The notes below the pieces were generated by a model. The model did no database searches, had not been told where the DNA came from, and worked only from the letters and a program-made list of their open reading frames with translations. From Chrysomallon squamiferum (lineage: Eukaryota > Animalia > Mollusca): 64,000 nucleotides of DNA. The translations under genes were made by a program, and so were the position numbers. Each line of letters opens with the position of its first letter. The stretch's first letter is position 1. The stretch covers positions 42,532,001-42,596,000 of the forward strand of contig CM022665.1 of NCBI GenBank assembly GCA_012295275.1, in the 5' to 3' direction. Positions 34,156-60,339 of this stretch are shown here, piece by piece.

Positions 34156-37100
34156 CTGAAAAATAAAAACATAAATTATTTAATTTCACTTTAATGATTT
34201 TTATTTTATTATTGGCTTAAAATGGTGGGGTTTTTCATATAGCAATATACTGTTCTAAAATTCATGGTAGTTTTAAGTCAATTTAACAAAAAGAAGGTAA
34301 ATAAATAAAATGAAGAAATAAAATTTAAGTTTGAAATTATTAAAAACCAAGATTTTTTTGTAACTTTTTGTAGTTCATTCCAACTTTAACTAAAACAGGA
34401 TTCACAGCTTCCTTGCAAACAAATGTAACTAAATATTAGCAGTGTATGTAAGGAAAACAGAACCTGGGCCCTGTCCAAACATCTGACACCATCTTTCAGA
34501 AAACTACCATACAGCAAGCTAAAAGATATCAGTCTAGTGGCTCCCAGGGCTCTGCCATACTTGCCATAACTTAGTTACACCACTGCAGGATGTGCAGTGA
34601 TTTCTCTACTACAACAAAGCTGATTTTGTTTTACCTGTCTCCTATCCTCTTCTTGCACACTCTGCAAACTTTCTCCTCGTTAATTAGCACCTTGACTTTC
34701 TGATAATGCATCCTCTGTTCCTGTATCTAGTAAAAAAAATTCAAGAATTCTATTATTATACTATAATGAAATATTTAATTCAATTTTAATTATTATTATT
34801 ATTTTAAACAATAATAACTAAAATTTAACACATTATACACTGTTGAAAGAAATCGAAGATTATCACCATATCAGTTTATGTGTACACATTTGCAAAACTA
34901 AGAGAGGTATCCATCAATCTATCAGTGACTTATCAACCATCCTATTAGTCCTCTGCATACACCAAACAACAGAACATATTCCAAATATACACCCAATCTG
35001 TCATTACCTAAGACAACCTAAATGGTCCACAGTAACAAACTTGTACAAAATTCTAAGATGATAGACTACAGGAAAAGACAGTCCAGTTTATTCTAAAGAC
35101 CAACAAGTAGCCCCAGCTTGTAAAATAAGGAAAAATAAGCTGTAATAAACAATGATTATGAACAATGCAGTTATTTTTATTCATAAGTCTCTTAGAGACT
35201 GTGCCTTTTGTATGTATTGATCACTACAGACAGGCTTTCAAAATAATTTTTCTTTGGCACAAAGGATTATGTGTTTTTTTACTTTTGATATATCCACAGT
35301 TATAAAAACAGTGCTTTGTTAATATGAATCTTTCTGATATATTCTAATGTTCTTTTATACTTATATAATATTTTATCTGTTTTACTGAACAGCATAATAA
35401 TGTAATTACTTTTATATATAGAATCTATTCTGACAAAACAAACACACTTGCAAACAGAGAATATAAATACACATACACTCATATGTGCACACTCATAAAC
35501 ACGTGCATACACTAACATATTTTATGCTAGCATCATAAAAATGTTTAACCAATAGATGTGGATATTAATTCCTAACTATGAGAAGGTACATATATATATA
35601 TATATAAAATATTGTTTTGTTAAACATAATTGTGGATGAAGTATGTTCATTCTGTTACTAAAAAACATAACAATAAAATAACCATTAACAGTTTAGTGAT
35701 AGCTGACAGTGTTATGCACAAACATACACATGTATATGTAAAAATGTCATCAGTAATACAATAGGAATGCATATAAATGTCAAAGATTAAATACCACAAC
35801 ATGGTGATAATTACTAATCCATCTCTGCTTGCATGTTCTGACCTCAGCATTTTTTTTGTCACATTACTCAGCAAGTCAGAAACAGCTTTGAGTTGTTACT
35901 AAAAACAATTGTTATTTTTGACATTTTTGAAAAGAATGAAACAATTTGCACAGGCAAAAAAAAAAACCCCAAGAAAACCCCCCCAAAAAACCAAGAGATT
36001 TATAACCATTTGAAAAAAAAAAAAAAACCAGTATTTTTAAATTTATTTTCTGATATTCATTATGTCAAGTCAAGCTCAAAAATTTATCAAAGAACATTTT
36101 ATTAAAATAATGAAAAAAAAAAAAAAAAAGGATTCAGAAATGATTAGTAACTATTACTCCTTTGAAGTGGTATTTAATACTATTTGTAGAGCGTATTATT
36201 TTCAATTTAATTTACTTAATCATGGGTTTTGGACTACTAAACCAATTTATTCTCAGCTTATATTTTCTCCTGCAAACAGACAATCAGGATTTTATTAGCT
36301 GTCTCGCTGCCCTGCTGGTTTAATTTAATTAATACACAAATCTCATTCTGCTGTACAATGAAAACAGCAGGTCCTCAGAACAAGATATTATCATCAATTG
36401 TACAGCTGTGGTCTGGCAATGGTCCTGGATAAAACTCGCAGGCAAAGAGGTATGTCCATAACAATCATGCTTAAACTGTTTGTCTGACAGAACTGTGTTA
36501 TGGGTAAAATTCACAGGCAAAAAGTCTGCCGATGACAGGCATGCTTAAACTTTGTTTCATGAATTTGTGTTATAGGTAAAACTCACGGGGGAAAGCATGC
36601 CTAAATAGTTTGATTGAATTATGTTATGGGTAAAATTGACAGACAAAGAGGCATGTCCACAACAGGCATGCTTAAACTTTTTGATGGAACTATGTTGTAG
36701 GTAAAACTGACAGGCAAATAGGTCTACCCATGACAGGTATGCTTAAACACTTGTCTGCAGAAAGGAAAATAAAAATACCCACTCCCAGATAATCTGCTAA
36801 TTTGCTAATAATACTGTTGATGAAAGCTTTGTCTGCATTCACATCCCTCTGTGTTATTTCCCATTCCAGTCACTTGGTTATGATATGTAGTATCCTGTTT
36901 GTTGCAAAGTGGCATGTAAACTATCTTTTACCTCAGTGGAAAAATATATAGAATTTGTTGGTTTTTTTTTTTTTTCTTAATATGTTAAAAAATTAATTAA
37001 CATGTTCTGTGTTGATGAAAAACTTTTTGACATTTGTCTTTACATCAAAATATAAAAATTATCAATTGTCAAACAACAGCTTTTTTTCATCTTCATTTCA

Positions 37101-38675
37101 AAATATAATGAAAACAATATTAAGTAAAGAATGTCAAAAAAAAAAAAAAAAATAATAATAATAAAAGAGAAATTTGTTTGGAAGTACATATCATGATCTA
37201 TTTAATTCTAAATAATCAAGATTGTTATTTGAAATGGACTAAAAATATGAAAGCTTCAAAATGGTATCTGGCTTTGTCTTTATTTAAAGTATTTTAGAAA
37301 ATTTATCAACAACAGAACATTAAAAAAAAAAAATAATAATAAAAAAACAAAACAAAAAATAAATAAGTAAAAATGTAAAAATCTTAATAAATAAATAAAT
37401 AAATAAATAAATGATTAATAAGTTTTAACAGTACAATATAAATATACTTTATTTAATTCCTGTCTTCAGAAAGTTACTTAAACAATCTTGACAGGTGCAA
37501 TTGTTTGGCAGCCATTTCACATACTTTAGTTTAAAATACTCTGAAACCAATCAGGAAAAATAAATCACTCTTAAAACAAAAAAAATAAAAAATAAAAAAA
37601 AGACAAAAAAAAAAAAGAAGAAAAGAAGGCAGGAAAAAATTATGTTTGAAATACATGTACTCTGAACTGCATGATTTGAGATATTTAAAACTCACAGGCA
37701 GGTACAGGCTTGAACAATTTGACTGAACTATGTTACGGGTTAAAGTTCACAGATTTATAAGGTCTGTCCATGGACTGCATGCTTAAACATACTTAAACAG
37801 TTTGTCTGATGGAAGTGTGTTAAAAACCACATACTTATGGTAGTTTGCTTGAACGATGGCAAAGTGACATGTAAAATATAGATTTTTGGGTGGTTGGTTT
37901 TTTTTGAAGGCTATAATTAAGTTATCTGACATAAAACAGCTGATGATAGAAAAATTAATCAATGTGTTATGTGGAAATTTGTTTTTATTCTGAATATACA
38001 AAAACAACAAGAAATAATCATTTGTCTAGTGTTTTTTTCTTCATATTATGATCTGTTTGATTTTAAATGACTAACATCTTTACTTTCCAAACATCTAAAA
38101 AGATGAAATCTTCAGCTGTTTGGCTGTGGACTGCCTTCATCTTTATTTTAAATATTTTAGAACATTTATCAACTACTGAACATTTAATAAATAATAAAAA
38201 AAAATAATAAAAACAAAAATAAATAAATAAAATAGATCAATAAATAAATAAATAAAATAAAAATAAAATAAAACCAAATAAATAAATAAATAAAAAGAAA
38301 AGAAAAAAACAAGATTAATAAACTTTAACTGTACAATATACATAAACTTTATTTAATTTCTGACAGTTATATGCCTTCACTACAGAAAGACACTAAAACA
38401 TATCTTGACAGGTGGAATTCTTTGGCAGTTACTTGACTTTCTTTATCTGTAGTCTGTAATAATCTCAACCCAACACGGAAAATAAATCACTCAAAATAAA
38501 AAATAAAAATTAAACAAATTAAGAAAAATGTAGACAGGACAAACAGTTATTTAAAATTATGTGTTCTTTGAATTGTTTGTTTTAAACTAGTCTAAGAAGA
38601 AATGGCTAAACAGGTGCAGGAAATGTTCTATTTTTGAATTGTGCTTTTTTATTTTTATCATTTATTTATTTATTA

Positions 38676-38707
<32 letters not shown>

Positions 38708-41700
38708 TAGTAACAGTATTACATAATGTTTTTTTTTTTTTAAAGAATAATAACAACAAATAATAGTAATAATAATAAAATATATTTTAGTAATTATCAA
38801 ATGTTTTTTAAAAAATTCAGTTATAATGGTTTTGAACACACACACACACAGATTTCTGTTTATCAATTTTGATACATTTTTAAAAATTATCATCATTAAT
38901 ACAGTGACAAAAAATGTATTGTCTGCATCCTGTTAAATAACCGCAAACCGATGGAACTGAAATAACACAGGAAACATAATACTGCCCCCACCCCTTTCTG
39001 ACACGCTGTTAAAACCTCACTTCACTATTTTTACAATTTCAGAGAACGTCTGCCAGGATCTGTTTCTCTAACATGATTTATATAAACATACATGCTGCCT
39101 TTTCCAAGCCAGAATGACCTCTGACATTTGACCTGAAATGGTCAGCTGGAGTTGGCAGGGGCAGAGGTATGATAACCCAGCAAGACCACTGCTGGGAAAT
39201 TTGATATTTGATATATGGTGGGTCAACCCCGATTAAAGGAATGTTTGGCAAAAAACATTCTTTTCTTATCTTTTGTAGACTCTAAATGTTATTACTGGTG
39301 TGGTTTTTTAAAACAAAAATAATGGTCTTTATTATTATTTTATTTTTTTGGTTGTCAAAACACATCTGGATGTCACTTTTGAGGATGGAATAGAATGAAT
39401 GTTTAATGACGTTCCAGTAAGTTTTAATATTAATAGTTATTATGTAGCTGTCAAAAGTTTCTTGAATAATAATGATTTGAGAGATGAAATCAATTCACTT
39501 GGCTTTTTTTATTATTATTTATTTACATATTGGCAGCATCAGATCTTTTATATATCTATCTTGTATTGAAGAGGAAGCACAAATCACAGCCTTTACATAT
39601 AAATCTGCTGAGACAGATTTTATTAGAATAGTCTTTAGTCCTGGTAAAGAAAACAGAAAGTTCCAGCTGTAGAAATTATTCTTTTATTAAGTAATTGTCA
39701 GCAAAAGTCAAATTAGACAAACTGTTTATCCTAAATTTGATATAAAAATTAAAAAAACCCAGTAACATTGTTGTTATTGTTCTTAGTATTCATAATGATA
39801 CTGATGATGACAATGATTATTATTATTATTATTGATGATGATGATTGTTATTATTATTATTGATGATGATGATGATGACAGTGATGATTGTTATTTTCAT
39901 TATTAGCAGTAGTTGTAGTAATAATGAATACAATAAAACTGATCTAAAACATAATGGCAAGACCAGGATTTCAGAACTGGGAGATAACCTTTACAATGGT
40001 GGAGATATTATTTTCAAAATGAACCTAATTTCATCATGATGAAAAGAAACATCTGCCATCAAAAAAAAAAAAAATCTGACAACACCACCAGAACAGCATG
40101 CACAGAATGCAATTCTCTGGACTCCTAGAAAACTGCCATTGAAATCATCACTGGTTGTTTTCTGATGTTATAATATGAATTTTGTTAAAGCATTTCTGTT
40201 AAAACTGACTGTAATGCCTTTGATAAATGATCAGTGTAGAAATCCATGCTGATTAAAGTCTGGTGCACTTTTACAAGATGCATGCAAGAAGATAATTGTA
40301 AATAATTGCTCCATTAAGATACGAGGGATGGAGGTAATTTTATTAAATAAAACAGCAGGAGAAGAGTTCTTCAGGAAATGTTAGAAGTTTTAAAAATTAC
40401 AACCAGACACACCCTGGACAGGTACACTAACTCCTCTCTTTTAACACACAAACACATAAATTAACAACAGACACACACACACACACACAACAACAACAAC
40501 AACAACATAAAAAACATACATTTTTAACATGCAATTTTATGTCAATATTCAAACACACACACACACATACAAAAAAAAATATATATATAAAAAAATAATA
40601 GTAATAATAAGAATTTTAAAAAAGGAAAACAAAATAAAAAAATAAAAGCAAAACAAAAGAAAACAAAGCATACAAACATAAACAAAGCCTGTTCTGACAA
40701 AAGGTCAAACTTCTGACATCCATGTTACTGATGGCCTGTTACCCATTATCCCAACATCCCAGTGTTTCAACAGGCCAGTATTAACAAATACCATTTCTGT
40801 ACACACACACACATACACTAACTCATCTCTTTCTCATTTACCTCTCTCTCTCTCTCTTATCTGGATAATTACAGAATTATGAAAGCTGCCAACATGTCTG
40901 AAGTGGAGTTCACTTATATAAATGAAGTTCTCCAAATTTTAATATTCCTTCTTTCACAGTCTCTCCAAAGCTTCTTATACTAAACCTAATTTAGGTTTTT
41001 AAAACTTGACAAGCTGCCAGTGTTTAACCATGTCCCTCATGATGAAAATTCACTGATAAAAGTACACATAATCGGTTATTGTCAAATTATTAAATATAGA
41101 TAGCTAGACGGGCAAGAAGATGTAGAATATGGAAAAGAATTTCATAAAAACATAAATGTTTTATCTGCATTCTGACAAAAAAAACAACATCAAAATTTGT
41201 GTCAAAATTTTATCGATATTTTATAGTTATTCACTTAGTTCTCAAGGATGAGTTGGAAGTCTGAGGTAGTTGTTTGTTGATTAAAATAACTCATTTATTA
41301 TTCATTATCTCAATATGCAACCCGACACTCAAAACAGTTCACTTTAATTAATTTAGTCCACATCCAGTCCAGAAATTACATTTTAAATCAGGAATTTCAC
41401 GAAACTGTGAGATAGATCATTTTTACAATAGTAATTTAGTTTTTGTTTGTATTTTTATGTTTTAATACAGTCTTTCTTCCACTTCAAGGAACAGAATTTG
41501 TTTTAAAATTTTCTTTGATGTTCAATATAAAAATTATTTTCTGACAAAATTTTCTGGCAGTGTAAAGGAAATAATTTATTGACCAATGACATGTTTTCTT
41601 TTCAAAGAAAATACTTTAAAAATGCAAGTGTGTTTTGAGAAAAACAGGTTTGATAGACAATGCTGTTAGAAAATGTTTATTATTCAAGCAAGTTCAAACA

Positions 41701-43130
41701 AAAACATACAAGTTTACATAAATAAATAAAGAAAGAAAAGGAAGCTTTAGCTAATTAAAAATCACCTAAAAAAAACTAATTTAAAATCTGAATTACTAAT
41801 TCATCCAAGCCCCAAAAAAGAAAATGAAATTTTTATCTCAGAATGAATTAATAGTTAAAAAAACAACAACATCCCAGTAACAACAGATGCAACTTTTCAG
41901 CCCACACTGCAGTACCTAATATCCTATAAAATATCAGTGTCATCAAAACTGCATAAACATCTCACTGAATCAAAATGTAAGTACTGCTTATCTAATACAG
42001 ATCACAGCACATGGTTTAACCAGGCATGAAATCATTATGTACTATGACATATCAGTTTAAACAGTTCTACTGTGTAAACCGTTCTTTCCAATCACGATGA
42101 AACCGCCCTCTTTGTTATTTTATCTTTCAGTGCATCATTAGAATGGAATTTGTTTATCACAGACTTCATTTTTGGAGTAAGAATTAGAATATTGTGTGTT
42201 AAAATATAGCAATAGTCATGAAAGTATTTTGGAGAGAGAAAAAAAAAAATCTAAATACTATATTGTATGTAAATATTCCATAAATAAAACATGATGAATT
42301 GAAAACCAGTATTCTTACAATTTATGAATTTAGCTAGACTATTTAAATGTAAATGTTTTAAGAAGCCTCTCTTTTCTAATTTTATTTTAATTTCTTAAAT
42401 TTTTAAAATATTTTTTTTTGTATTTGACTTGAACACCATTAACCTTAGATATACCTTTGAGAACAGGAAGTCTAAATTAAAATATCCTTAATGTATAAAA
42501 TAAAAGTCTGTTTCAAAAATGTGTATGTGAAACCATATGCATTATGTCATGTCTTAAACCTGAATTCTGAAGAAACATTCGTGTAAGAATGTGAATGCAA
42601 ATATACGAATGCTGCTTAGGAAAATGTTTTTTTTTTATTATTCCTTGAACAGAAATACTAGGCCTGACTGCTGTAATAAATAAAACATTCAGACAATGTC
42701 TTTGAAGATTCGAATGTAGGCATTAATGTGTTGGATAATAAAATAAGCTACAAAGCTAGCCAGACATCTTTATGAAGGAATGATTCCAAAGCAGTTCATG
42801 ATGAATTGAAAACTGCTTATTAAATAATGAATATAAATGTGTAATAGCGTTTGGGTGTGTATATGCATGTGTGAATATGAACGCATTAGATTTGTATATG
42901 CAAGAATGTGTGTGTGCATATGTCTGTGCATGTTTTGTGTTTGTATCCAAGACTGCACATTAATGTGTTTTTTAATATAAGAATAACATAACTATATACA
43001 TACATGCATATATATATATAAATCTATAACTATATATATATATATCTTATATCAATACATATCTATATCTATATATATATATATATATATATAGATATAT
43101 ATATAGTTTTACATGTGTGTGTGTGTATAT

Positions 43131-43190
<60 letters not shown>

Positions 43191-46100
43191 TTATGTGCAT
43201 ATATTGACAGACGACAGCTAGATAGATAGACTGTGTGTGTGTGACACACATGCAAATGCATATACACAAATATGTACATACATACAGTGATATGAATGAA
43301 AACTTTCAAGCCATTAACAAATCGTCTATTTGAAATTATTAATAAAAAAAAACCACTGGAATATTTTAACACAATGAACCAACATAGCTGATGAAATAAT
43401 AAACAAAAATCAGTGAAAAGTTTTAACACATCACTATGTAACAGTAGAAAAGTGGACAGCTAAGCCACTATTCTGTATAATTATCCTGACAAAAACAACA
43501 ACTTATTAGCAGCAATTTGCTTCCTCCGGGGACCCTCTGAAAGGTCAAGCCACACCAGTATAATGGAGAAAGCGTAATTGTTTTCAAAGGTTTGAAGTTC
43601 AGAGAAAATTATATCCAGTGCCGAATGTTATTACTGAATGAAATGTTAAAGGAAAAGGCAGCAGGAAACAGAGTTTATCAAGTGTTTTATCACTGAAATA
43701 AACTAAAAAAAAAAAAAAAAATAAAATAAAAAGAAGAAAAAATATATATAAAAATAAATAAAAATTAATAATAATAAAAAATAAATAAATAATACAAAAT
43801 ATTAAAAACAAATTAGTAGATGTGATTTCATATATAAAATAAAACAAAAAAAACCACCAGTAATTATCGTAATTTCCAGCTGGGTGTTACAGTTATGAAG
43901 TATGAATCATACAGATAATATAAACAGAAGTATTAACAGATCATATTATTACTTTTCTCACTCACTCAGTGGCCAATGTTGACAGTGTAAATATCATTAT
44001 TAATGACAAATGGCTGTAGAGTTTTTATTAAGTTGTTTTTTATCAGTATAAATAAACATTAAACATGATTTTATAGCAGAAAATAATTATGATAATAACC
44101 CAAAAGTATATTATGACTTTATTAATCAAAAAAGATAATAAATTTTTGTTGTTTATTTTTGTATATTAGAAAGAAATTGAGTTTACTAAAAATTTTTTTT
44201 TTAAAAATTGAAAAAATAAAATAATAATAATAACAATAACAATAACATAGAAAGAAAGAAAGAAAAAAAAGAAAAAACTGTGAAATTACAGATTAATAAG
44301 GAAAGACAATGGAATTTGTAAAAGGTAACTTGTTATAATAATTTAGAAGGAGATTAATGTTATTCAAATATATAGATACCAGTAGACATAGTAGACAGAC
44401 AGACAGATTGTTATACAGATGTCAAGAGATAGAATAAAGAGAGAGATAGACAGACAGATAGGCAATTAGATAGATAGATAAGTAAATCAGAGATCTTCAT
44501 ACCAAGACACAATCATATACAGGCAGAAATAGCTAAACAGACAGGCAGACAGATTTTGAAAAAAGATTAAACAGATTTAACTGACAGTGAAAGTTAAATA
44601 TTCTAATATAAAATATCAACATGTAAAGGATGAAATTTTGAACTCTAAACCTATCATACAGATATTATGTTTGCTCTTCTAAACAGATTGTTTATATCAC
44701 ATCTTATATTCTGCTAAACTGGAAGTATCAAATATACGACACCTCTGAATGTCACTGACCATACTGTGTAATATATCTGATACCCACGTTTTCCTCTGTT
44801 AATTCAACACCCAGATTAACCTTTTTCTATGCCAAGACATGTGCATTACCGGATTTATTCATGATTAATTCTATTCATAGGACATGTGACAAATAAATGT
44901 ATCTCCAACAGCTATGTGATACGTGCAACCTACTTTTCTTTTGTATATGATGACATTTCCACAAGGTCATTTAAAGTGTAAAAAGATACTTTGGTTGAAA
45001 GTACTTACACATTACACAGTTAACAAGTTTTTTTGTATTTTTATTTTCTGTATGTACAAACACAAATCTTCTGTAAAAAATTAGAAAAAAACTGTTTAAG
45101 TGTCCAGATAAAGTTGATTAATTACAGTTACAGTTTTTATTACATCAACTAACAGAACTATTCTTTGTGTGTGCATGTGTGGCTGTGCAAGTGTGTCATT
45201 TATTTGCTATGTATTTATATGTAAATACACACAGATACACACAGATACACACAGATACACACAGATACACACATAAACACAAACATACCATCATACATAC
45301 ACATACACATAGCATATTTATATATACACATATAAAGGTACTTAAAATTTATTATATATATTATATGAATTATTTTTCAATAAAATAGACAAGACACCAA
45401 AATAAACAGAACTGTCAAGAAAAATATAAATAAGAGACATATTGCTACCAGGTGGCAAGAGAAACTCACAGCATCTGTAAATCAAAATACATAAAACCTC
45501 GTAACAGGCATAGGTGTGCACATTTAAATGTTCCAGTATTTACACAGAAAAAGCACACTGAAATATTCTAATACTAAAATATTTACATAGCGAAAAAGCA
45601 CACTGAAATATTTATAGAGAAAAAGCACACTGAAATATTTATATAGAAAACGCACATTGAAATATTTATATAGAAGAAGCACATTTAAATATTTAATTTC
45701 CAGAATACTTCTATCATAACACTGTTCAAGCACGCATGCCATGGACACATTCTCAGATTCTAGCAGACAGGTGAGCCTGGAGCAGGGAACACCACAAGAG
45801 TGGTCGTGCATTATTTATTTGATGTTAAAGTTTAAACTCTGGGGCTTGTGTCTCCCACCTTTGTTTCTTTGAAGTCCAGCAAAACATGGTACCCATGTGT
45901 TACTAATAGCCATGTGTTTGTAACACAACACTAGGCAGTGTTCATTAAGTGAGGATTGTGTTGGTCTTAACCAAACATTTTTTCCCCTTACAAAGCTAAT
46001 TATCAGACATTAGCTCCACAATGAGGAAACTTTCTACCATGCAGGGAAAGTGTTAGTAAGTGCTGAACATGTTACTAATAGATAAGAAACACGTGTGTAG

Positions 46101-48021
46101 TTCCCTCCCTTGATTTCTTTATATTTCTCACATCTCATATCCTCCATTGTTTATTTCTGTATTTTTATATACCCATCATCATCTCATTATTTTTAACAAA
46201 TTTCTAATTCTCTCCCTTGATTTATTTATTCCTCTCATTCTTCCTCTCATTGTTTAGCCTTCTTTCTCTATTTGATTACTTATTTACCCATCTCATCCCT
46301 AGACTGACTTCCTTTCATTATTTCTTAACAAATGTGTGTAATTCTCTCCCTTGATTTATTTATATCTCTCACATCACATATTTTTTCTCTCGTTCCTCTC
46401 ATTCTCTAACATTCTTTCTGTCTTTGATTACTTATTTACCCACCTCATCCCCATCACAGACTCACTTTCTTTATCTCTTAACAAACAGATGTGTGTAGTT
46501 CCCTCCCTTGATTTATTTATATCTCTTACATTTCATATTTTTTTCTCTTTTTCTAACATTCTTTCTGTCTTTGATTACTCATTTACCCATCTCCTCCCCA
46601 TCAGAGACTCACTTTCTTTCATTATCTCTTTCAAACAGATTGGACTTAGTACATGTCTATAAATAGTGGTTTTATCTGTTTTTATTTGGTATCTTTACTT
46701 AGATTTCTTCCATTTAAATTTTAAACTTTTAAAAATTAATAAAATAACCATTTACCAGCAAAAGTAACTATTACCTTGAATATTCAACATATTTAATAAT
46801 TAATAATTTAACATTTGCAAATATCAATTTGGTAAATTTTCATACCATAAAAGTAAATGAAAAATGAATCACTCATAAGCCTTCTTAAAAAGAATAAAAA
46901 AACAACAACAAATTTTTTTTATTAACACCAAACCCATTCAGTAATTAGTGATTTTAAATTTTATTTTAATATCAGGTAAGTCTGAAATTACTTAATCATG
47001 CAATGGATTCAAATTTAATATTGTAATATTCATAGAAAGAAACAAAATGTACAATAATTCAAGGGAAGTAATCTGCAGACAAAATCAGTGATTTCCTCAA
47101 GTACTTTTTTTTTTTTTTAAACTTTAATATTTCAAGTGAAATAAATCAGCTGTTTTAAAACTGAAATTCTTTTTCAACTATTATGGAAACGAAAAGCTAA
47201 ATTTTTCTATGTAATCCAAAAAAATTGGCACACTTTCCTTTTGTAGCCGTAAAAAGTTAACTGAAAGTGTAAGTATTTTTTCTTTCAGATTTGAAACATT
47301 TGTAAAATTTGGTCAGTTGTACTTAAATATATGAGGTTGTATTTGTTTTATTCGTTGTATTTTGTGTAGGTATATATGTCTGTCTATGTGTGTATGTGCG
47401 TGCATCTATATTTTGTGTTTTTATAGTACATTCAGCTTTTGACCATATACTTTTAAAGATGCCAGTAAATATAAAAATAATTTTAATATATAAAATACAT
47501 GTACTATGAATAATCATCAAAAATTCAAATTCATCTGACTTTACACATTTATGTTCGTGACATAAATACATGCAGTCTTTTGCACACATTCATACATGTG
47601 AAAAAACACAGAAACACAGCAAGTATAATAAAAGTAAGAACAAAGGTAAAGCTTACCTGCAGATTTTCGGCATACAGCATACTTTTAAGTATCTGATCTT
47701 GACGATGTTGGGAAGCTCTGTGTTCCATGACATTTTCCAGGTACAACAGAATTTCTTGCACTTTTGTTGATGATGGTAACAATTCCAGTGCCTGTAATAA
47801 AGTTTGAAAATATTTTTAAAATTTTGTTTTATTTTATGTCAGAGATGTTTGATTGTTATGTTTCTGATTTTTTATCTGTAATGATGAAATAAAAATAACA
47901 ACATGATAATAATAATAATAATAATAGTAATATATACATACTTATATAGATATATATATATATATATTTTAAATGTATTAAAGAAAAGGAAATTAAACAG
48001 TGCCCGTGTTCAAAACAGCAA

Positions 48022-48061
<40 letters not shown>

Positions 48062-51000
48062 TTTACAAAATAATAAAAACAAATACCAAAATTAAATACC
48101 TAAAATAAATCTTGACAATAAAAAAAAAAAAAAAAAAGGAAAAAAAAAAGAAAAAGAAAAAGAAAAATATAGAATTAGAATAAGTACTATATATTATTTT
48201 TAAATTACAAAAAGAAATATGTCATTAATAGAAATGACCCCCAAAAATTCTAAATTAAAAATAAAGAACATTAGTTTAAGTTTCTAAATAGTGAAAAATT
48301 AAAATAAGTAAATAAATCAATAAATCAAAAATCTAAAATAACTTACTTAATTTTTAAATAAATTTAAGCTAATGAATTACATAATATTTTAGTTTCTAAA
48401 AATATTGAAAAAGAAAACTGTACTTATCTAAACAATAAATATAAATTAAAAAAATAATATTTAAATTTCTGAATTACAGATACTAATAAAATAAACATAA
48501 ATAAATTTATGAAAATTGATATAAATGACACATATTTTTTATTTAAAAAAAAAAGATGAATTACAAACAAAAAGCATAATATTTAAATTTCTAAACGAAA
48601 AAGAAAAAGCAAAAATATTTGAATGAATAATATTATAAACAATTTAAAATTAAATCAAAATTGATATTTACATAATCATGTCAGGAAATAATAATAAAAA
48701 ATAAATGAATAAATCAAAACAATACTAAATAGAAAGTAAAATAATTAAATAATTATAAGCTGACAATCAGACAAAATTAAATAAAAACTTCTAAGTGTCT
48801 GAACAATCTTAAACTTTGTCACTTAAAAATATATATATAAGTAAATAATAATAAAACAAATTAATAATGAAAAAAAATAAAAAACTCAAAATATATGAAC
48901 AAAAAATTTAAATATTTAATATCCAAACAATACAAAACTTATTTTAGAAGTAAAATATTAAATTAATTACAAAACACTGAATTCAGTTTAACAGTTAAAG
49001 TATTAGCCTTACTTGAGTAGTTTCTATTTTCCATGCATGGTCTTCTAGTAACCTGAGAGCTGCGTCCTTGTCAGGCTTTGCTTTCATTGTCTGACTGACA
49101 CCAATCCCCAGCACACTGGGCTCCGGAGGCTGCAGATACATCTTCAGTAGATTTGTGTAAACCTAGGTTTGAAAACAGAAAGTTTCACTCTCATATATCT
49201 TCAGTAGATTTGTGTAAACCTAGGTTTGAAAACAGAAAGTTTCACTCTCATATATCTTCAGCAGATTTGTGTAAACCTAGGTTTGAAAACAGAAAATGTC
49301 ACTCTCATACATCTTTAGTAGATTCATGTAAACCTAGGTTTGAAAACAGAAAATTTAACTCTCATACATCTTTAGTAGATTTGTGTAAACCTAGGTTTGA
49401 AAACAGAAAGTTTCACTCTCATATATCTTTAGTAGATTCATGTAAACCTAGGTTTGAAAACAGAAAGTTTCACTCTCATATATCTTCAGTAGATTTGTGT
49501 AAACCTAGGTTTGAAAACAGAAAGTTTAACTCTCATACATCTTCAGCAGATGTGTGTAAACCTAGGTTTGAAAACAGAAAGTTTCACTCTCATATATCTT
49601 CAGCAGATGTGTGTAAACCTAGGTTTGAAAACAGAAAGTTTCACTCTCATATATCTTCAGCAGATTTGTGTAAACCTAGGTTTGAAAACAGAAAGTTTAA
49701 CTCCCATATATCTTCAGCAGATGTGTGTAAACCTAGGTTTGAAAACAGAAAGTTTCACTCTCATATATCTTCAGCAGATTCGTGTAAACCTAGGTTTGAA
49801 AATAGAAAGTTTCACTCTCATATATCTTCAGTAGATTCGTGTAAACCTAGGTTTGAAAACAGAAAGTTTCACTCTCATACATCTTCAGTAGATACATGTA
49901 AACCTAGGTTTGAAAACAAAGTTTAACTCCCATATATCTTCAGTAGATTCGTTTAAACCTAGGTTTGAAAACAGAAAGTTTCATTCTCAAACATCTTCAG
50001 TAGATTCATGTAAACCTAGGTTTGAAAAGAGAAAATGTCACTCTCATACATCTTTAGTAGATTCATGTAAACCTAAGTTTGAAAACAGAAAGTTTAACTC
50101 CCATACAACTTTGGTAGATTTGTGTAAACCTAGGTTTGAAAACAGAAAGTTTAACTCCCATACAACTTTGGTAGATTTGTGTAAACCTAGGTTTGAAAAC
50201 AGAAAGTTTCATTCTCATACATCTTCAGTAGATGTGTGTAAACCTAGGTTTGAAACAGAAAATTTCATCCAAAAAGAAGATACACCTCAATGCATAAATA
50301 TCTATAAAATATTTTAAAATCAGAATTATATTTATCTAAAACATAGAAAAATAACTTTAAAAAATAAAAAGGCTGCCATCTGTGATAAAAAAAAATATAG
50401 ATACACACACATGCACATAAATTCAGTATATCCAAAATAAAATAATCAATCAATGAAATAACTAAACAAAATGCAAACTGACAAATATAATATTATGAAA
50501 AAAATATACTTACATCTTTGTTGCCTTCTTTATCTTTATCAAAATTTTTCTTACAGTAACTAAATTAAAAAAAAATAAAAATTTAAATCAGTGACAATAA
50601 TAAATATAATCAGTTTATGTTAATTTAACTTTTACATATCTTAGTTTTTCATTGACCAAAAAATAAATATAAAAATAATAATAATAATAATAATTTTTGT
50701 TACACTTATAAAAACCAAAACCCCCCATAAATAATAATAATTAAAGAAAGAAAGAAAGAAAAAAGAATATATATAAATTACAATGTATGAAAACAAAAAT
50801 AATAAAATGATAAAAATAACTCAATAAATTGTAGGCTTTGTAACATTCAAATAAAAAATAATTTTTCAATGAAACCAAAAAAATATCAACAAAAAAAATG
50901 TAGAATTGTTTTAAGTTTATATTTTCTTACTAACTGAAGTATGTTATAAATTATTTTATTTTTGGGGACTCACTCTTCTGCTAAAGCTGGATCGTGTAAT

Positions 51001-54000: not shown

Positions 54001-57000
54001 CTCTTCCTGTAAGTGTATGTTACAGTTTAAAAATTATATAATGTTAAAATCCATGTAGCATAAAACTTGGTGCCCAATTATGCTTTTTCCCATTCCAACC
54101 CCATACTTATGACTTTAATATTAAAGATGTTAAGGGAGAGTCCATAAAACAGACCTAGCTCTGATTACATAAAAAAATACTGGATATTCTCTGAAAAAAA
54201 AAACAGTTAAAAATATCTTGAGCCATTACAAAATTCACTAGGACTGTCCTTAAAGCAAAGAGAATATTAAATAAAGGAAGTGAAAGCTAACCTAGATGTT
54301 GTAAGTACTGTACTGTTCGGTCGTGACCTTTCAGTGGAGAATCAGGTCTTGCTGCTTGTTTTGTTAACAGGTTCAGAGCTGTAAATAAAATACAACAGAA
54401 ATCCTCATTAATTTGTTCAAAACAACGTAATATCATAATAAAAAAACCCAGTTAAAATGAAAAAAAATCAGAAATTGCTAAGTGCATATTACTATACTTA
54501 TTCATATTTTAAGTAATAAACAAATATATTTTATAAGTTAATGAATTAAAGAATTAATTTATACAAATATTCAAATAATTATGAATTTTTATTTTCATGG
54601 TATATATAAATAAATGTATTTTATAAGTTAATGAATTCCAGAATTAATTTACACGAATATACAAGTAATGTTAAATTAAAAGTACTAATCCACAATGGAT
54701 GGATTACTGATAACTCAGCTTAGAAACAAATTGAACAAATTATCTGAATAAAAAAATTTGCTTTATTTTAGCAAAACTCTTATGAACCATTATTTACAAT
54801 GTATCAATAAAATTCATATTATTTCTTTGATAACATATCCTTTATAGCCATTCATACAGAAAAACTAAGTTAAGAAACTGTCAACTGAGTAGCATAGGTT
54901 GAAAATCTGGTTTAACAATTTTAGTTTCATTTTTTATGTAAACCTTTCATTTCATAGAGAATTATCAACTGAGTTAAAAATAGGATTCAGCAGTTTACTT
55001 AATTTTCTTAAAAAATAGGCTTACAACGAAAGGTATCAACTAAATCACACAAGTCAAAAATCAGATTTACAAACTTACCTTTTTGATGTAAACCTTTCTT
55101 TTCATAGAGAATTATCATCTGTGTAACGTAAGTTAAAAATCTGTTACTCACCTTTTTGATGTAAACCTTTCTTTTCATACAGAATTATCATCAGAGTAAC
55201 GTAAGTTAAAAATCTGTTACTCACCTTTTTGATGTAAACCTTTCTTTTCATAGAGAATTATCATCTGTGTAACGTAAGTTAAAAATCTGTTACTCACCTT
55301 TTTGATGTAAACCTTTCTTTTCATACAGAATTATCATCAGAGTAACGTAAGTTAAAAATCTGTTACTCACCTTTTTGATGTAAACCTTTCTTTTCATAGA
55401 GAATTATCATCAGAGTAACATAGGTTAAAAATCTGTTACTCACCTTTTTGATGTAAACCTTTCTTTTCATAGAGAATTATCATCTGAGTAACATAGGTTA
55501 AAAATCTGTTACTCACCTTTTTGATGTAAACCTTTCTTTTCATAGAGAATTATCATCAGAGTAACGTCAGTTAAAAATCTGTTACTCACCTTTTTGATGT
55601 AAACCTTTCTTTTCATACAGAATGATCAACTCCACATATTTCTCCTTCTTCCTCAGCACTCTCTCACTCTCCTCTACGTGACAGTTGTTGTCTTTCAGTC
55701 TCAGCAAGGGAGCCACCAGAGCATCATTTGTCTGAAACATAATCTTCCTTTAATTAGCAATCTAATTATTTTACATGAAAGTTACAGAAACTGTTATAGG
55801 GTTGCAAAGATACTGTGTTTTTTTTAAATACATCTTCAATAAACAGAGCACACAAAACCACTCTGGGCTGTCTTGGCACATTTTGGGGAACGCTTCATTT
55901 AAAAGGTAAATGTATTTAATTAGCAGTTCAAAATATTTTTATACTGAAATATATTTTCATTTAAATATTACAGAACAAACAATAGATAGATAGATAGACA
56001 GACAGATAAATACTAATTTTTTTATCTTTTGATTCTCAAGTATATGCAGAAAAATACATAATAAAAAAAAAAAAAAACCAAAGACAAAACAGTAAAGCAT
56101 CCACTGAAGGATTTTGAACTCAGAATCCTTTGTTTTTGAGACACACCTGCAGATAACATTTCAGTAACGTGGTGTCTATGATCTGACTGAGCTGTTTCTT
56201 GGACCTGATTGTCATGTTGCCTTCCACAATGGCTGTGGTTTCCATTTCTTTGTTGATGTCCTTTATCAGCTGGTTTCTTTTCTGAAAATTAAATTTAAGA
56301 CTTTATAATCCTCATCATCATACTCTCTCTCTCTCTCTCTATTTATATATATCGAAGATAGAAAAAATATTTAGTTATATTTACTGATCACGAGTGAATG
56401 ATTTGTTGTATCTTGGCATTTGGATGTTACACATTTTTATTATTCTTCAAAATACACTGAAGGAAAAATAAAATTCATTACCACACATATATATACTGAT
56501 GTGTCTGCAAATAAACAACAAAACACACAGACACACCTCTGTACCATCCTACACATACAAATGTACTCGCACACACACATGCATGCACACACACACACAC
56601 ACACACACACAGAGGTAAGGTTACAGTCATACCTCAGTGAGATAATCTATGAGAGATAAAAATCCTTTCTCTAACTCGGCTCCTTCTAAACTTGGCAGTT
56701 TGTTTGGATATTCCAGCTGATTCCTGAATTCCTGAGGCAGAAGATTTGGATATAACCCAATTACATGACTAGGATCTGTTCAATAAACAAATAAACAAAT
56801 AAACATACAAACAAACAACAAATACATGAATAAATAAATAAATAAATGAGGATGCTGTTAATAATTGTTCTGAAATTTACATCTTAAAATTAATTTTATT
56901 ATTAAGAATACAGTTTTTATTTCTTTTATTGTCATTATTATTTGTTTATTATTATAATTACAGTAATTTTTTTAAATCCTAGATTCTATTAAAATTTCAT

Positions 57001-58026: not shown

Positions 58027-60339
58027 AGCAGTTTTTGGGAATCAAACACTGCCTTTTTCGCGCAAAGATAAAATAGCAGAAGAAATTTTAATACAATATT
58101 CACAACACCTAAAACAATTCAGAACAGAATTTTTATTTATAAATTTTTAAATTAGGTTTGTTAGTAACAAATAAAAATAACAAATATTTTTAAATTTTAT
58201 CAGATATACACATAGATGCATCCATGCACACAAATATATACAACACACACACACACACAATCACTTTCATCAAACTGTCATAAACAAATGATAATACAGA
58301 ATAAAAAAAGTCATTTAATGTATCATTTACACAGTGTATTTTAATTCACAAACATAGTCACACATTAAATACAATTTATTCTTACCTCCCTTGACAAATA
58401 AATTTCGGTTTCGGCAGCTCAATGCTCTGGATAAGAAGGTTTGGTTCTATCGTTCTTATTTCAACATATTTGGGCAAAATTGCTATCACATAGGGAGGGT
58501 TGTGCTCTAAAATAAAAGTAACATCCATCTCAATAAAGTACATAGTTCTGTTATCATTACTGTAAAGGTTTAATGAGGGTTAATATACATTTCACCACAG
58601 CTGATGAGTTTTGGAATAAACAAGAAAAAGTCTATCAAAGCACCGAGTGACATCTTAATAGAAATGACATATAATGTGTATGATACAGTATGATGAAGAA
58701 GATAAACTGATAGACTAATGTCTCATGGCAATGGCTGACCATTAAGTATGTGTCTTTTTCCCATACTGTTTTCACTGCTGTGAGTACAAGACATATCATT
58801 AAAAATTGAATAAAAAGGCTATCATCCTTTACTGAACAATTTAAATTAAAATTTAGAAAGGATACATTCAGTAACTAGTAATATTTACCTTTGGATTTTG
58901 GGGGATTTATTTAATACAAAAAAATTATTAAAAACTGTTATTCCAGTAACTACAAAATTATAAATATTTTAATAATTACCAACAGCAACAGGAATATCTG
59001 TCCATTTAATTGGCTCTTTTTGGAATGGTGCTCCTGAAGAGTCAATGAGGATGGACATCTGATCTCTACCGAGAGCCAGTCTTCCATTTGCGAGACTCGA
59101 CACAACGGGCTCGGTCTGCTGGTTCCCGACAGGAAAGAGCTCAGTGAGAGCTCCGTCTTTTACCTGAAACAAAGTAACTCACTGTCATCACAGGTGCAAA
59201 TTTCTGGAATTTCCCTGAAGGTACATTGTCAGCTTTTAATAGTTAATAATAGTAAACAATACACTGTTAATTTTAAACATTATAATGCAGACTTATATTA
59301 GTCATAAATAGGAATGTACAATTTTTTTTTATAGTTGATAATATTGATTTTAAATCTACAATTACTTAATAAACACAAACTATTTTGATTTGAATTAAAG
59401 CTTCTATAAAAGAAATTAATAAAGTAAAATTGTAAATGAATATAAAGAAGTAATATGTTTTTCTATGTAATTCTTTATTTTTAAATTTAATCCATCCATC
59501 ATGGACATAAATTTTGGCATATTTCTGGCAAATAGCTATCCTTTAATTTAATAAGAATGTTCTGTTAAAAGATTGGTATTTGTGAATGAATAAAAAAGGT
59601 AATATATTCCTTGATATAATTTTTGGTTTTTTAAATATATAATTTTGTGATAAATTATTCAATATGTTTAAGGATTTTTTTTTTCTCAATTTGCCAACTG
59701 ACAAAAGTAAATATAATATCTGTTGTATTGAAAAACAGACATACATATGACTTTTATTTATTCATTTAGCATTAATGTTCTTTACTTTGATATCCTCTTT
59801 CATAGTTATAAAAAAAAATGAAATAAAATATTTCAAATTGACCACCATCAATATGATGTTCTTTGTCAAGTTAGGAAATGAAAAAAAAACAAGGAAAAAA
59901 AACAGAATATGAAATTGGATATTGCTGAAGATTTTAACTTGTCAATTCTATTTTTAAAAATCTTTTTTTCCTTCTTGCATTTTTCTTTTTTTTTCATCTT
60001 TCTTGCAATTTAATGTTTTTTCAGGTTTTTATGTTTATTATTAATTTTTTGACTTTCTTAAAAATTTAATTAAAAAATCACAAATATCATAATGTTTTTT
60101 TTTTAATTAACCACTTGTCAAATTTTGTGTGAGTCTGTCATCACAAGATCATGTGAATCATGACTGTGTTTTAGAAGACTATCATAATTAGTGTTATTAA
60201 CACGTACATTGATCATGCAATACTCTCGTTTAAAACCAACACACAGTGAATCTCTTTTCCCTTCAGGATCTGTGCACCAGGCCATTGCTCTTGGGGTATC
60301 ATACAGACTGAGGTCTTTCTGGAAAATAAATTAAATGGT

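What the first reader, a model, noticed from the sequence alone, without database searches (positions are those of the whole stretch)
55079..55625. Eight stacked copies of a 5' splice site: a mirror-image array at the VPS39 exon-14 donor
Seen: the 73-bp unit is the exon tail ([16 protein letters not shown]) plus AAAG|GTGAGT and ~35 nt of intron, giving donors at exact 73-bp spacing. The outermost has the consensus GTAAGT. Reading through the first donor gives AAA GGT GAG TAA, an immediate in-frame stop, so any distal donor produces a premature stop. Inference: same logic as the acceptor array 5 kb away but with an unrelated sequence, so the two arose independently.
Basis: partly seen in the sequence, partly recalled or inferred. 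Interest (0 to 1): 0.8.

Follow-up and report, generated by a model that had tools for sequence, protein, structure and literature searches.

The report
Snail VPS39 splice-donor "mirage" repeat
An intron of a membrane-traffic gene (VPS39), likely from a snail, starts with eight head-to-tail copies of the exon's end and its splice signal, but the assembled RNA at hand uses only the first copy, so this is likely a tolerated repeat of a kind already known from lancelets and the human clotting-factor VII gene.

Summary
The array is real: a 73-bp unit, 7.6 copies, gives eight donors at exact 73-bp spacing. The repeat also appears in 3 of 3 DNA runs laid, from three studies. Only donor 1 keeps the 806-codon frame open. 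In 2 of 2 RNA runs (one study; contigs, no NMD block) the exon is spliced from donor 1, and no distal-donor junction appears. An older, decayed ninth copy lies further into the intron. The early stop is ordinary: 5 of 22 donors of this gene have one within three codons. This is a known kind: amphioxus 'mirage' minisatellites and the human F7 intron-7 VNTR. The scan has found such arrays before on other DNA, including this genome and sea-urchin VPS39. Position, not donor strength, likely picks the site. One loose end: the exon tail matches the neighbouring acceptor-array unit at 39 of 51 columns, so 'unrelated, independent' is not established; the match ranks joint first of 462 junction pairs but is absent from the outermost acceptor unit.

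The parts
55590..55731 (-). VPS39 coding exon (13th visible in window, 142 nt); its last 38 nt are the exonic part of the repeat unit
   Evidence: Pfam PF10366; covered end to end by RNA contigs in X6 and X7
55584..55589 (-). Authentic donor (donor 1, GTGAGT), phase 1
   Evidence: Only donor with an open 806-codon frame; RNA contigs leave here into the next exon; same intron position in 40 of 63 related loci
55073..55628 (-). 73-bp minisatellite, 7.6 copies; seven extra donors with GT at 55516, 55443, 55370, 55297, 55224, 55151, 55078
   Evidence: repeat present in DNA runs X2, X5 and X4
55152..55370 (-). Higher-order structure: units 4 and 6 identical, units 5 and 7 identical (likely a 146-bp two-unit duplication)
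   Evidence: Pairwise differences
55559..55588 (-). Imperfect inverted repeat in the intronic part of each unit (7-9 bp stem starting at donor +2/+3); also present at donor 1, absent at donor 8
   Evidence: z-scores only -0.8 to -1.9
55444..55483 (-). Possible 40-nt pseudo-exon (AG before it, donor after it); same in units 5 (55225-55264) and 7 (55079-55118); would be frame-shifting with a stop; not seen used
   Evidence: Unit sequences; no such RNA contig
54850..55078 (-). Older degenerate extension of the array; one clear copy at 54885-54970 whose donor is destroyed
   Evidence: blastn E 1e-14 and shuffle test 0 of 500 for 55078-54830; the first 79 nt alone are weak, 14 of 500
54292..54378 (-). 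Next VPS39 exon; acceptor shared by all eight donors
49136..50267 (-). Second array, 57 bp x 19.9, spanning a later acceptor; true exon 49013-49162 follows the last copy
   Evidence: splicing here not tested with RNA
55593..55643 (-). Exon-tail stretch that matches the acceptor-array unit (best at 49665-49713), 39 of 51 columns, including a shared 9-mer at 55598-55606

Best explanation
This is a splice-junction minisatellite ('mirage') that likely arose by local tandem duplication of a 73-bp piece straddling the exon's donor, and the assembled RNA at hand is spliced at the first donor only. Shown: the array, its presence in other samples, the open frame only at donor 1, the use of donor 1 in RNA contigs, young near-identical units next to the exon and a decayed copy deeper in the intron. 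Inferred: the array grows and is homogenised by slippage or unequal exchange; the spliceosome takes the first donor downstream of the exon's acceptor (oriented scanning or exon definition, as shown for human F7), not the strongest one; any leak to distal donors gives a stop codon 11 exons before the gene's end and would be removed by nonsense-mediated decay, so selection against the array is weak and it persists without a function.
For: Eight donors identical from -3 to +8 except the last, which matches U1 better (9 versus 8 of 11), so strength cannot explain the choice. X7: one unbroken 3398-nt contig, depth 47, runs exon to exon through donor 1. X6: all 4 of 4 contigs laid on 54280-55151 are accounted for (exon, next exon beginning with the true-exon letter at -29, an unspliced donor piece at depth 2, a repeat loop at depth 2.6); none joins a copy-type tail to the acceptor. 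In DNA run X4 the contig that carries the true exon continues with GTGGGT, a weaker donor than the GTAAGT last copy that X4 also has (no RNA for that sample). Turnover: units 4=6 and 5=7, boundary copies diverged; X2, whose upstream intron differs from the window at 22 letters and 5 gaps in 385, has a loop unit identical to the window's copy-1 type. Not conserved: 0 of 40 related loci with a GT donor at this position (31 distinct) have an array there. Precedent: PMC1557585, PMC3087553, PMC3902484.
Against: RNA evidence is contigs from two runs of one study, without NMD block; contigs drop rare variants, so distal use below roughly 15% of the spliced form (depth 2 against 11.7 in X6) is not excluded. 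In the window, units 4 and 6 carry the same letter at -29 as the true exon, so that marker does not separate all copies; the X6 loop carries the other letter. Human CBS and 6-16 minisatellites do use the next one or two pseudo-sites (PMC1557585, introduction). The related loci are distant animals (63-84% identity), not close snails. Scanning was shown in mammalian cells, not molluscs. The explanation does not account for the likeness between the two arrays.
Confidence: 0.8

Rival explanations
1. Copy-number rheostat: distal donors are used at a low rate that rises with copy number or stress, sending a share of VPS39 transcripts to NMD and tuning gene dosage.
For: All 7 distal donors are intact consensus sites with a stop before them, the anatomy of latent 5' splice sites that are activated by heat shock in human cells (PMC3510495, abstract). 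Contig depth of the unit against unique DNA differs between runs: 67.7/10.3 in X2, 274 against 121-159 in X4, a weak hint of length variation.
Against: No distal junction in 2 of 2 RNA runs. The donors are intact because the units are young; in the old copy at 54885-54970 the donor is gone. 0 of 40 related donors have an array. Contig depth is no copy number.
Confidence: 0.08
2. Shared seed: the donor array and the acceptor array both started at look-alike sequences, because a sequence-directed process (a nicking or break-targeting motif, or ectopic conversion between the two sites) favours amplification there.
For: Exon tail against the acceptor array scores 48; 0 of 20,588 other 60-nt window segments (max 42) and 0 of 10,000 dinucleotide shuffles reach it. 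With the shared 9-mer left out, the true acceptor's upstream 38-mer scores 22; 11 of 41,077 window 38-mers and 1 of 10,000 shuffles reach that. Both units also hold an inverted repeat at the junction (for the 12-bp palindrome at the acceptor).
Against: Found after the fact. In the fairer null of pretend arrays at all junction pairs it scores 36, tied with one unrelated pair, joint first of 462; the outermost acceptor unit scores 23 against a mean of 19.5 (also 1007 of 10,000). The 9-mer sits on conserved coding letters in both exons, in different frames. About a third of the match lies upstream of the young donor unit; the unit itself scores only 30.
Confidence: 0.2
3. Structure masks the copies: the hairpin in each unit hides the distal donors and leaves donor 1 open.
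For: A 7-9 bp stem starts at donor +2/+3 in units 1-7; units 2 and 3 fold better (-11.3) than unit 1 (-9.4 kcal/mol). Donor 1 has the highest predicted accessibility, 0.43.
Against: Donor 1 has the hairpin too; donors 2 and 3 are as open (0.41, 0.42); the gene's median is 0.375; folding z-scores are weak; donor 8 has no such hairpin and is not seen used.
Confidence: 0.05
4. Assembly artefact.
For: No raw or long reads were available, so the number eight is unconfirmed.
Against: The 73-base back-joint or unit contig is in 3 of 3 DNA runs laid, from three studies, with both unique flanks; units carry patterned differences.
Confidence: 0.02

Closest known systems
Amphioxus 'mirage' minisatellites (Adh3, globins BflGb6 and BflGb9, troponin C, PGBD5); PMC3087553 and PMC3902484, passages read
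   Same: Tandem copies spanning an exon-intron boundary, at 5' or 3' boundaries; unit in the reported 10-160 bp range; normal mRNA; concerted evolution with boundary copies left out.
   Different: Here a mollusc; somatic instability and allele lengths not measured; two arrays in one gene whose sequences partly resemble each other.
Human F7 intron-7 37-bp VNTR (also CBS intron 13, 6-16, lamin B2, PDGF intron 4); PMC1557585, abstract, introduction and discussion passages read
   Same: First unit holds the authentic donor, followed by four to eight identical pseudo-sites; only the most upstream is used.
   Different: F7 unit has 4 exon bases, this one 38; in F7 two pseudo-sites keep the frame and are still unused, whereas here all seven give a stop, so scanning and stop-codon surveillance cannot be told apart here.
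Latent 5' splice sites / suppression of splicing (SOS); PMC3510495, abstract and outline only
   Same: Consensus donors in an intron preceded by an in-frame stop.
   Different: Latent sites are scattered chance matches; these are duplicates of the true site. Stress activation untested here.

Membership tests
Mirage minisatellite | Tandem repeat whose unit spans an exon-intron boundary | tested here: met
   38 nt exon + 35 nt intron, 7.6 copies
Mirage minisatellite | Minisatellite-size unit (10-160 bp reported) | tested here: met
   73 bp; range from PMC3087553
Mirage minisatellite | Normal splicing despite extra splice signals | tested here: met
   2 of 2 RNA runs, one study, contigs only
Mirage minisatellite | Concerted evolution inside the array, boundary copies diverged | tested here: met
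   0-4 differences of 73 inside; 77% copy at 54885-54970
Mirage minisatellite | Length variation between haplotypes | tested here: inconclusive
   Unit-to-unique contig depth about 6.6 in X2 and about 2 in X4, but contig depth is no copy number
Mirage minisatellite | Somatic instability | not testable with these tools
   No raw or long reads offered
F7-type donor VNTR | Authentic donor in first unit, identical pseudo-sites downstream | tested here: met
F7-type donor VNTR | Next pseudo-site takes over when the upstream one is mutated | not testable with these tools
   Needs a minigene
Regulated poison-splicing (AS-NMD) element | Unproductive junction seen in RNA | tested here: inconclusive
   None in 2 of 2 runs, but no NMD block and contigs drop rare forms
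Regulated poison-splicing (AS-NMD) element | Conserved across species | tested here: not met
   0 of 40 related loci with this donor have an array; distant animals only
Latent 5' splice sites (SOS) | Consensus donor with upstream in-frame stop | tested here: met
Latent 5' splice sites (SOS) | Activation on stop removal or stress | not testable with these tools
   No such RNA data

The most novel reading that the evidence does not exclude
The donor and acceptor arrays of this gene grew from one shared core of about 50 bp (39 of 51 columns alike), which would mean that splice-junction minisatellites are seeded or cross-fed by a sequence-directed process rather than by random local duplication, and would give the first candidate motif for how mirages start.
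Probability: 0.2. Interest if true: 0.55.

Novelty: new member of a known kind. Interest (0 to 1): 0.2.

Why it matters
As it stands it is one more case, in a mollusc, of a described repeat type, and a natural test of first-donor choice outside mammals: eight near-identical donors, the best U1 match last, and an allele with a weaker first donor. The origin of mirages is called unclear in PMC3087553. If the likeness between the two arrays proved real across the genome, it would point to a seeding motif; that is the only part a specialist would find surprising.

Tried and rejected
No genome is held for this window, so no genome-wide count of junction-spanning arrays or motif search was possible. 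X5 showed no cover over 55657-56560; that is no evidence. Hairpin masking: rejected as the main cause. 'Immediate stop is special': rejected. Enrichment of arrays at junctions: a random 57-73 bp seed in the gene body covers a junction 9-11% of the time; 2 of 5 complex arrays in the gene body do, not significant alone. Interspersed-element origin of the unit: no other copy in the window. One search's similarity test was out of register by two bases and was redone; its numbers are not used. Pfam matched 1 of 6 single exons; the other five are short. Of 63 related loci, 5 were not parsed at the right codon, 17 have no intron there, 1 has a GC donor; these were left out of the count of 40. The original mirage paper (PMC117041) is not held and is known here only through citations. 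Paper searches with no result: VNTR + splice donor + cryptic + repeat unit + nonsense-mediated + intron; minisatellite + core sequence + PRDM9 + instability + invertebrate/mollusc. Searches found no mollusc mirage paper; subscription journals are not searched. ABCA7 VNTR papers were seen as search listings only and are not used as support. No look-alike stretch in other scanned genomes, no nearby notes.

Full report
Observation. On the minus strand a 73-bp tandem repeat covers 55073-55628 (7.6 copies, 95% matches). Eight donors stand exactly 73 bases apart, GT at 55589 down to 55078; seven read GTGAGT and the last GTAAGT. Each full unit is 35 nt of intron and the last 38 nt of the exon. The exon, 55590-55731, is part of Vps39 domain 1 (PF10366, E 3e-12), and its best named relatives are gastropod and other mollusc Vps39 proteins at 91-94% identity, so the animal is likely a snail. 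A 22-exon model from 63440 to 47657 reads open for 806 codons only with donor 1; each of the other 7 donors gives a stop at codon 495. Two last exons lie near 34,700 and 34,100.

Is it real DNA? Eleven public runs were listed, all as contigs; five were laid, on two stretches that each hold at most one unit. A joint that goes back 73 bases is present in DNA runs X2 and X5, and X4 holds a high-depth unit contig with both unique flanks: 3 of 3 DNA runs laid, three studies. One of these may share a source with the window, but X2 differs from it at 22 letters and 5 gaps in 385 bases of the upstream intron, and X5 at 21 letters and 13 gap positions in 836 bases downstream, so the array sits on diverged haplotypes. 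Unit depth against unique depth is about 6.6 in X2 and about 2 in X4; contig depth is no copy number, so this is only a hint of length variation.

Which donor is used? In both RNA runs (one study) the contigs leave the exon at 55590 straight into the exon at 54378. X7 has one unbroken 3398-nt contig at depth 47. In X6 all 4 contigs laid on the downstream stretch are explained: the exon, the next exon beginning with the true-exon letter at position -29, a 32-nt unspliced donor piece at depth 2 and a one-unit loop at depth 2.6. The last two fit unspliced precursor or DNA carry-over. No contig joins a copy-type tail to the acceptor. Limits: no NMD block, rare forms drop out of contigs, and use below roughly 15% would be missed.

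History. The seven units differ at 0-4 of 73 positions; units 4 and 6 are identical, as are 5 and 7, which suggests a two-unit duplication. Deeper in the intron lies a decayed copy (54885-54970, 77% over 82 columns) whose donor is destroyed, and the stretch 55078-54830 as a whole beats 500 of 500 shuffles. X2's loop unit equals the window's copy-1 type, which is unique in the window. This is minisatellite turnover, young next to the exon and old inside the intron. The intron position itself is ancient: 40 of 63 related loci have GT at the same place, and 0 of those 40 (31 distinct) have an array; these are distant animals.

Mechanism. Donor strength does not explain the choice: donors 1-7 are identical from -3 to +8 and donor 8 pairs better with U1; in X4 the true exon is followed by a weaker GTGGGT while donor 8 is kept. 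Structure explains little: each unit holds a 7-9 bp stem over the donor, but donor 1 has it too, z-scores are -0.8 to -1.9 and predicted accessibility is 0.43, 0.41, 0.42 for donors 1-3. Position is left: the first donor after the exon's acceptor, as shown by mutagenesis for the human F7 VNTR (PMC1557585). Loss of rare distal products to NMD is inferred from general knowledge. The early stop is ordinary: 5 of 22 donors of this gene have one within 3 codons. The 'mirror image' of the two arrays needs no design: duplicating a junction always leaves the true donor first and the true acceptor last.

Comparison. Tandem repeats spanning exon-intron boundaries, at either end of an exon and without effect on the mRNA, are described in amphioxus as 'mirages' (PMC3087553, PMC3902484; passages), and in human F7, CBS, 6-16, lamin B2 and PDGF (PMC1557585, introduction). 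The tested defining features are met; allele-length variation is inconclusive. My searches found no paper on a mollusc case. Supplements of these papers were not opened.

One unexplained point. The exon tail (55593-55643) aligns with the 57-bp acceptor unit at 39 of 51 columns. No other of 20,588 window segments and none of 10,000 shuffles scores as high, and the match holds without the shared 9-mer. Against it: it was found after the fact; among 462 pretend junction pairs it ties for first with an unrelated pair; the outermost acceptor unit shows no match; and the 9-mer is fixed by coding in both exons. I give about 20% that it reflects a shared seeding motif or ectopic conversion, and otherwise chance.

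Verdict. Observation confirmed, interpretation partly supported; a new member of a known kind; interest 0.2.

Noticed in passing
window 49136-50267 (-): 57-bp x 19.9 acceptor-spanning array: 20 acceptors, only the last keeps the frame; the in-frame unit ends in a stop that is the acceptor itself; a 12-bp palindrome is centred on the acceptor AG.
   Followed up: partly
window 55593-55643 versus 49665-49713: Exon tail and acceptor unit match at 39 of 51 columns; significance mixed.
   Followed up: yes
run X4 at window 55589 equivalent: The authentic donor reads GTGGGT instead of GTGAGT in this sample (loose-end consensus of 2 contigs).
   Followed up: no
window 34725-47657 (-): The second-to-last VPS39 intron is about 13 kb, against 0.3-1.4 kb for the other 21 introns modelled; it holds the 147-bp, 27-bp and 71-bp repeats.
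   Followed up: no
window 36430-36760 and 37700-37800: 71-bp repeat with about five diverged copies and a further look-alike 1 kb away; not at a splice junction of VPS39.
   Followed up: no
window 37280-37570 and 38120-38490: Two diverged copies of a stretch of about 300 bases, seen by eye.
   Followed up: no
window 54516-54677: Two-copy 72-nt direct repeat (85%, spacing 90) in the same intron.
   Followed up: no
window 54826 and 54929: DNA runs X4 and X5 both hold other contigs that match short pieces here and then run on into the same unlike sequence; possibly another locus or an insertion allele.
   Followed up: no
window 59164-59215 (-): A second AG about 50 bases upstream of the acceptor at 59163, with a donor-like site between; possible small alternative exon, seen by eye.
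   Followed up: no
L042:1112-1120: A related locus has a GC donor at the same VPS39 intron position.
   Followed up: no
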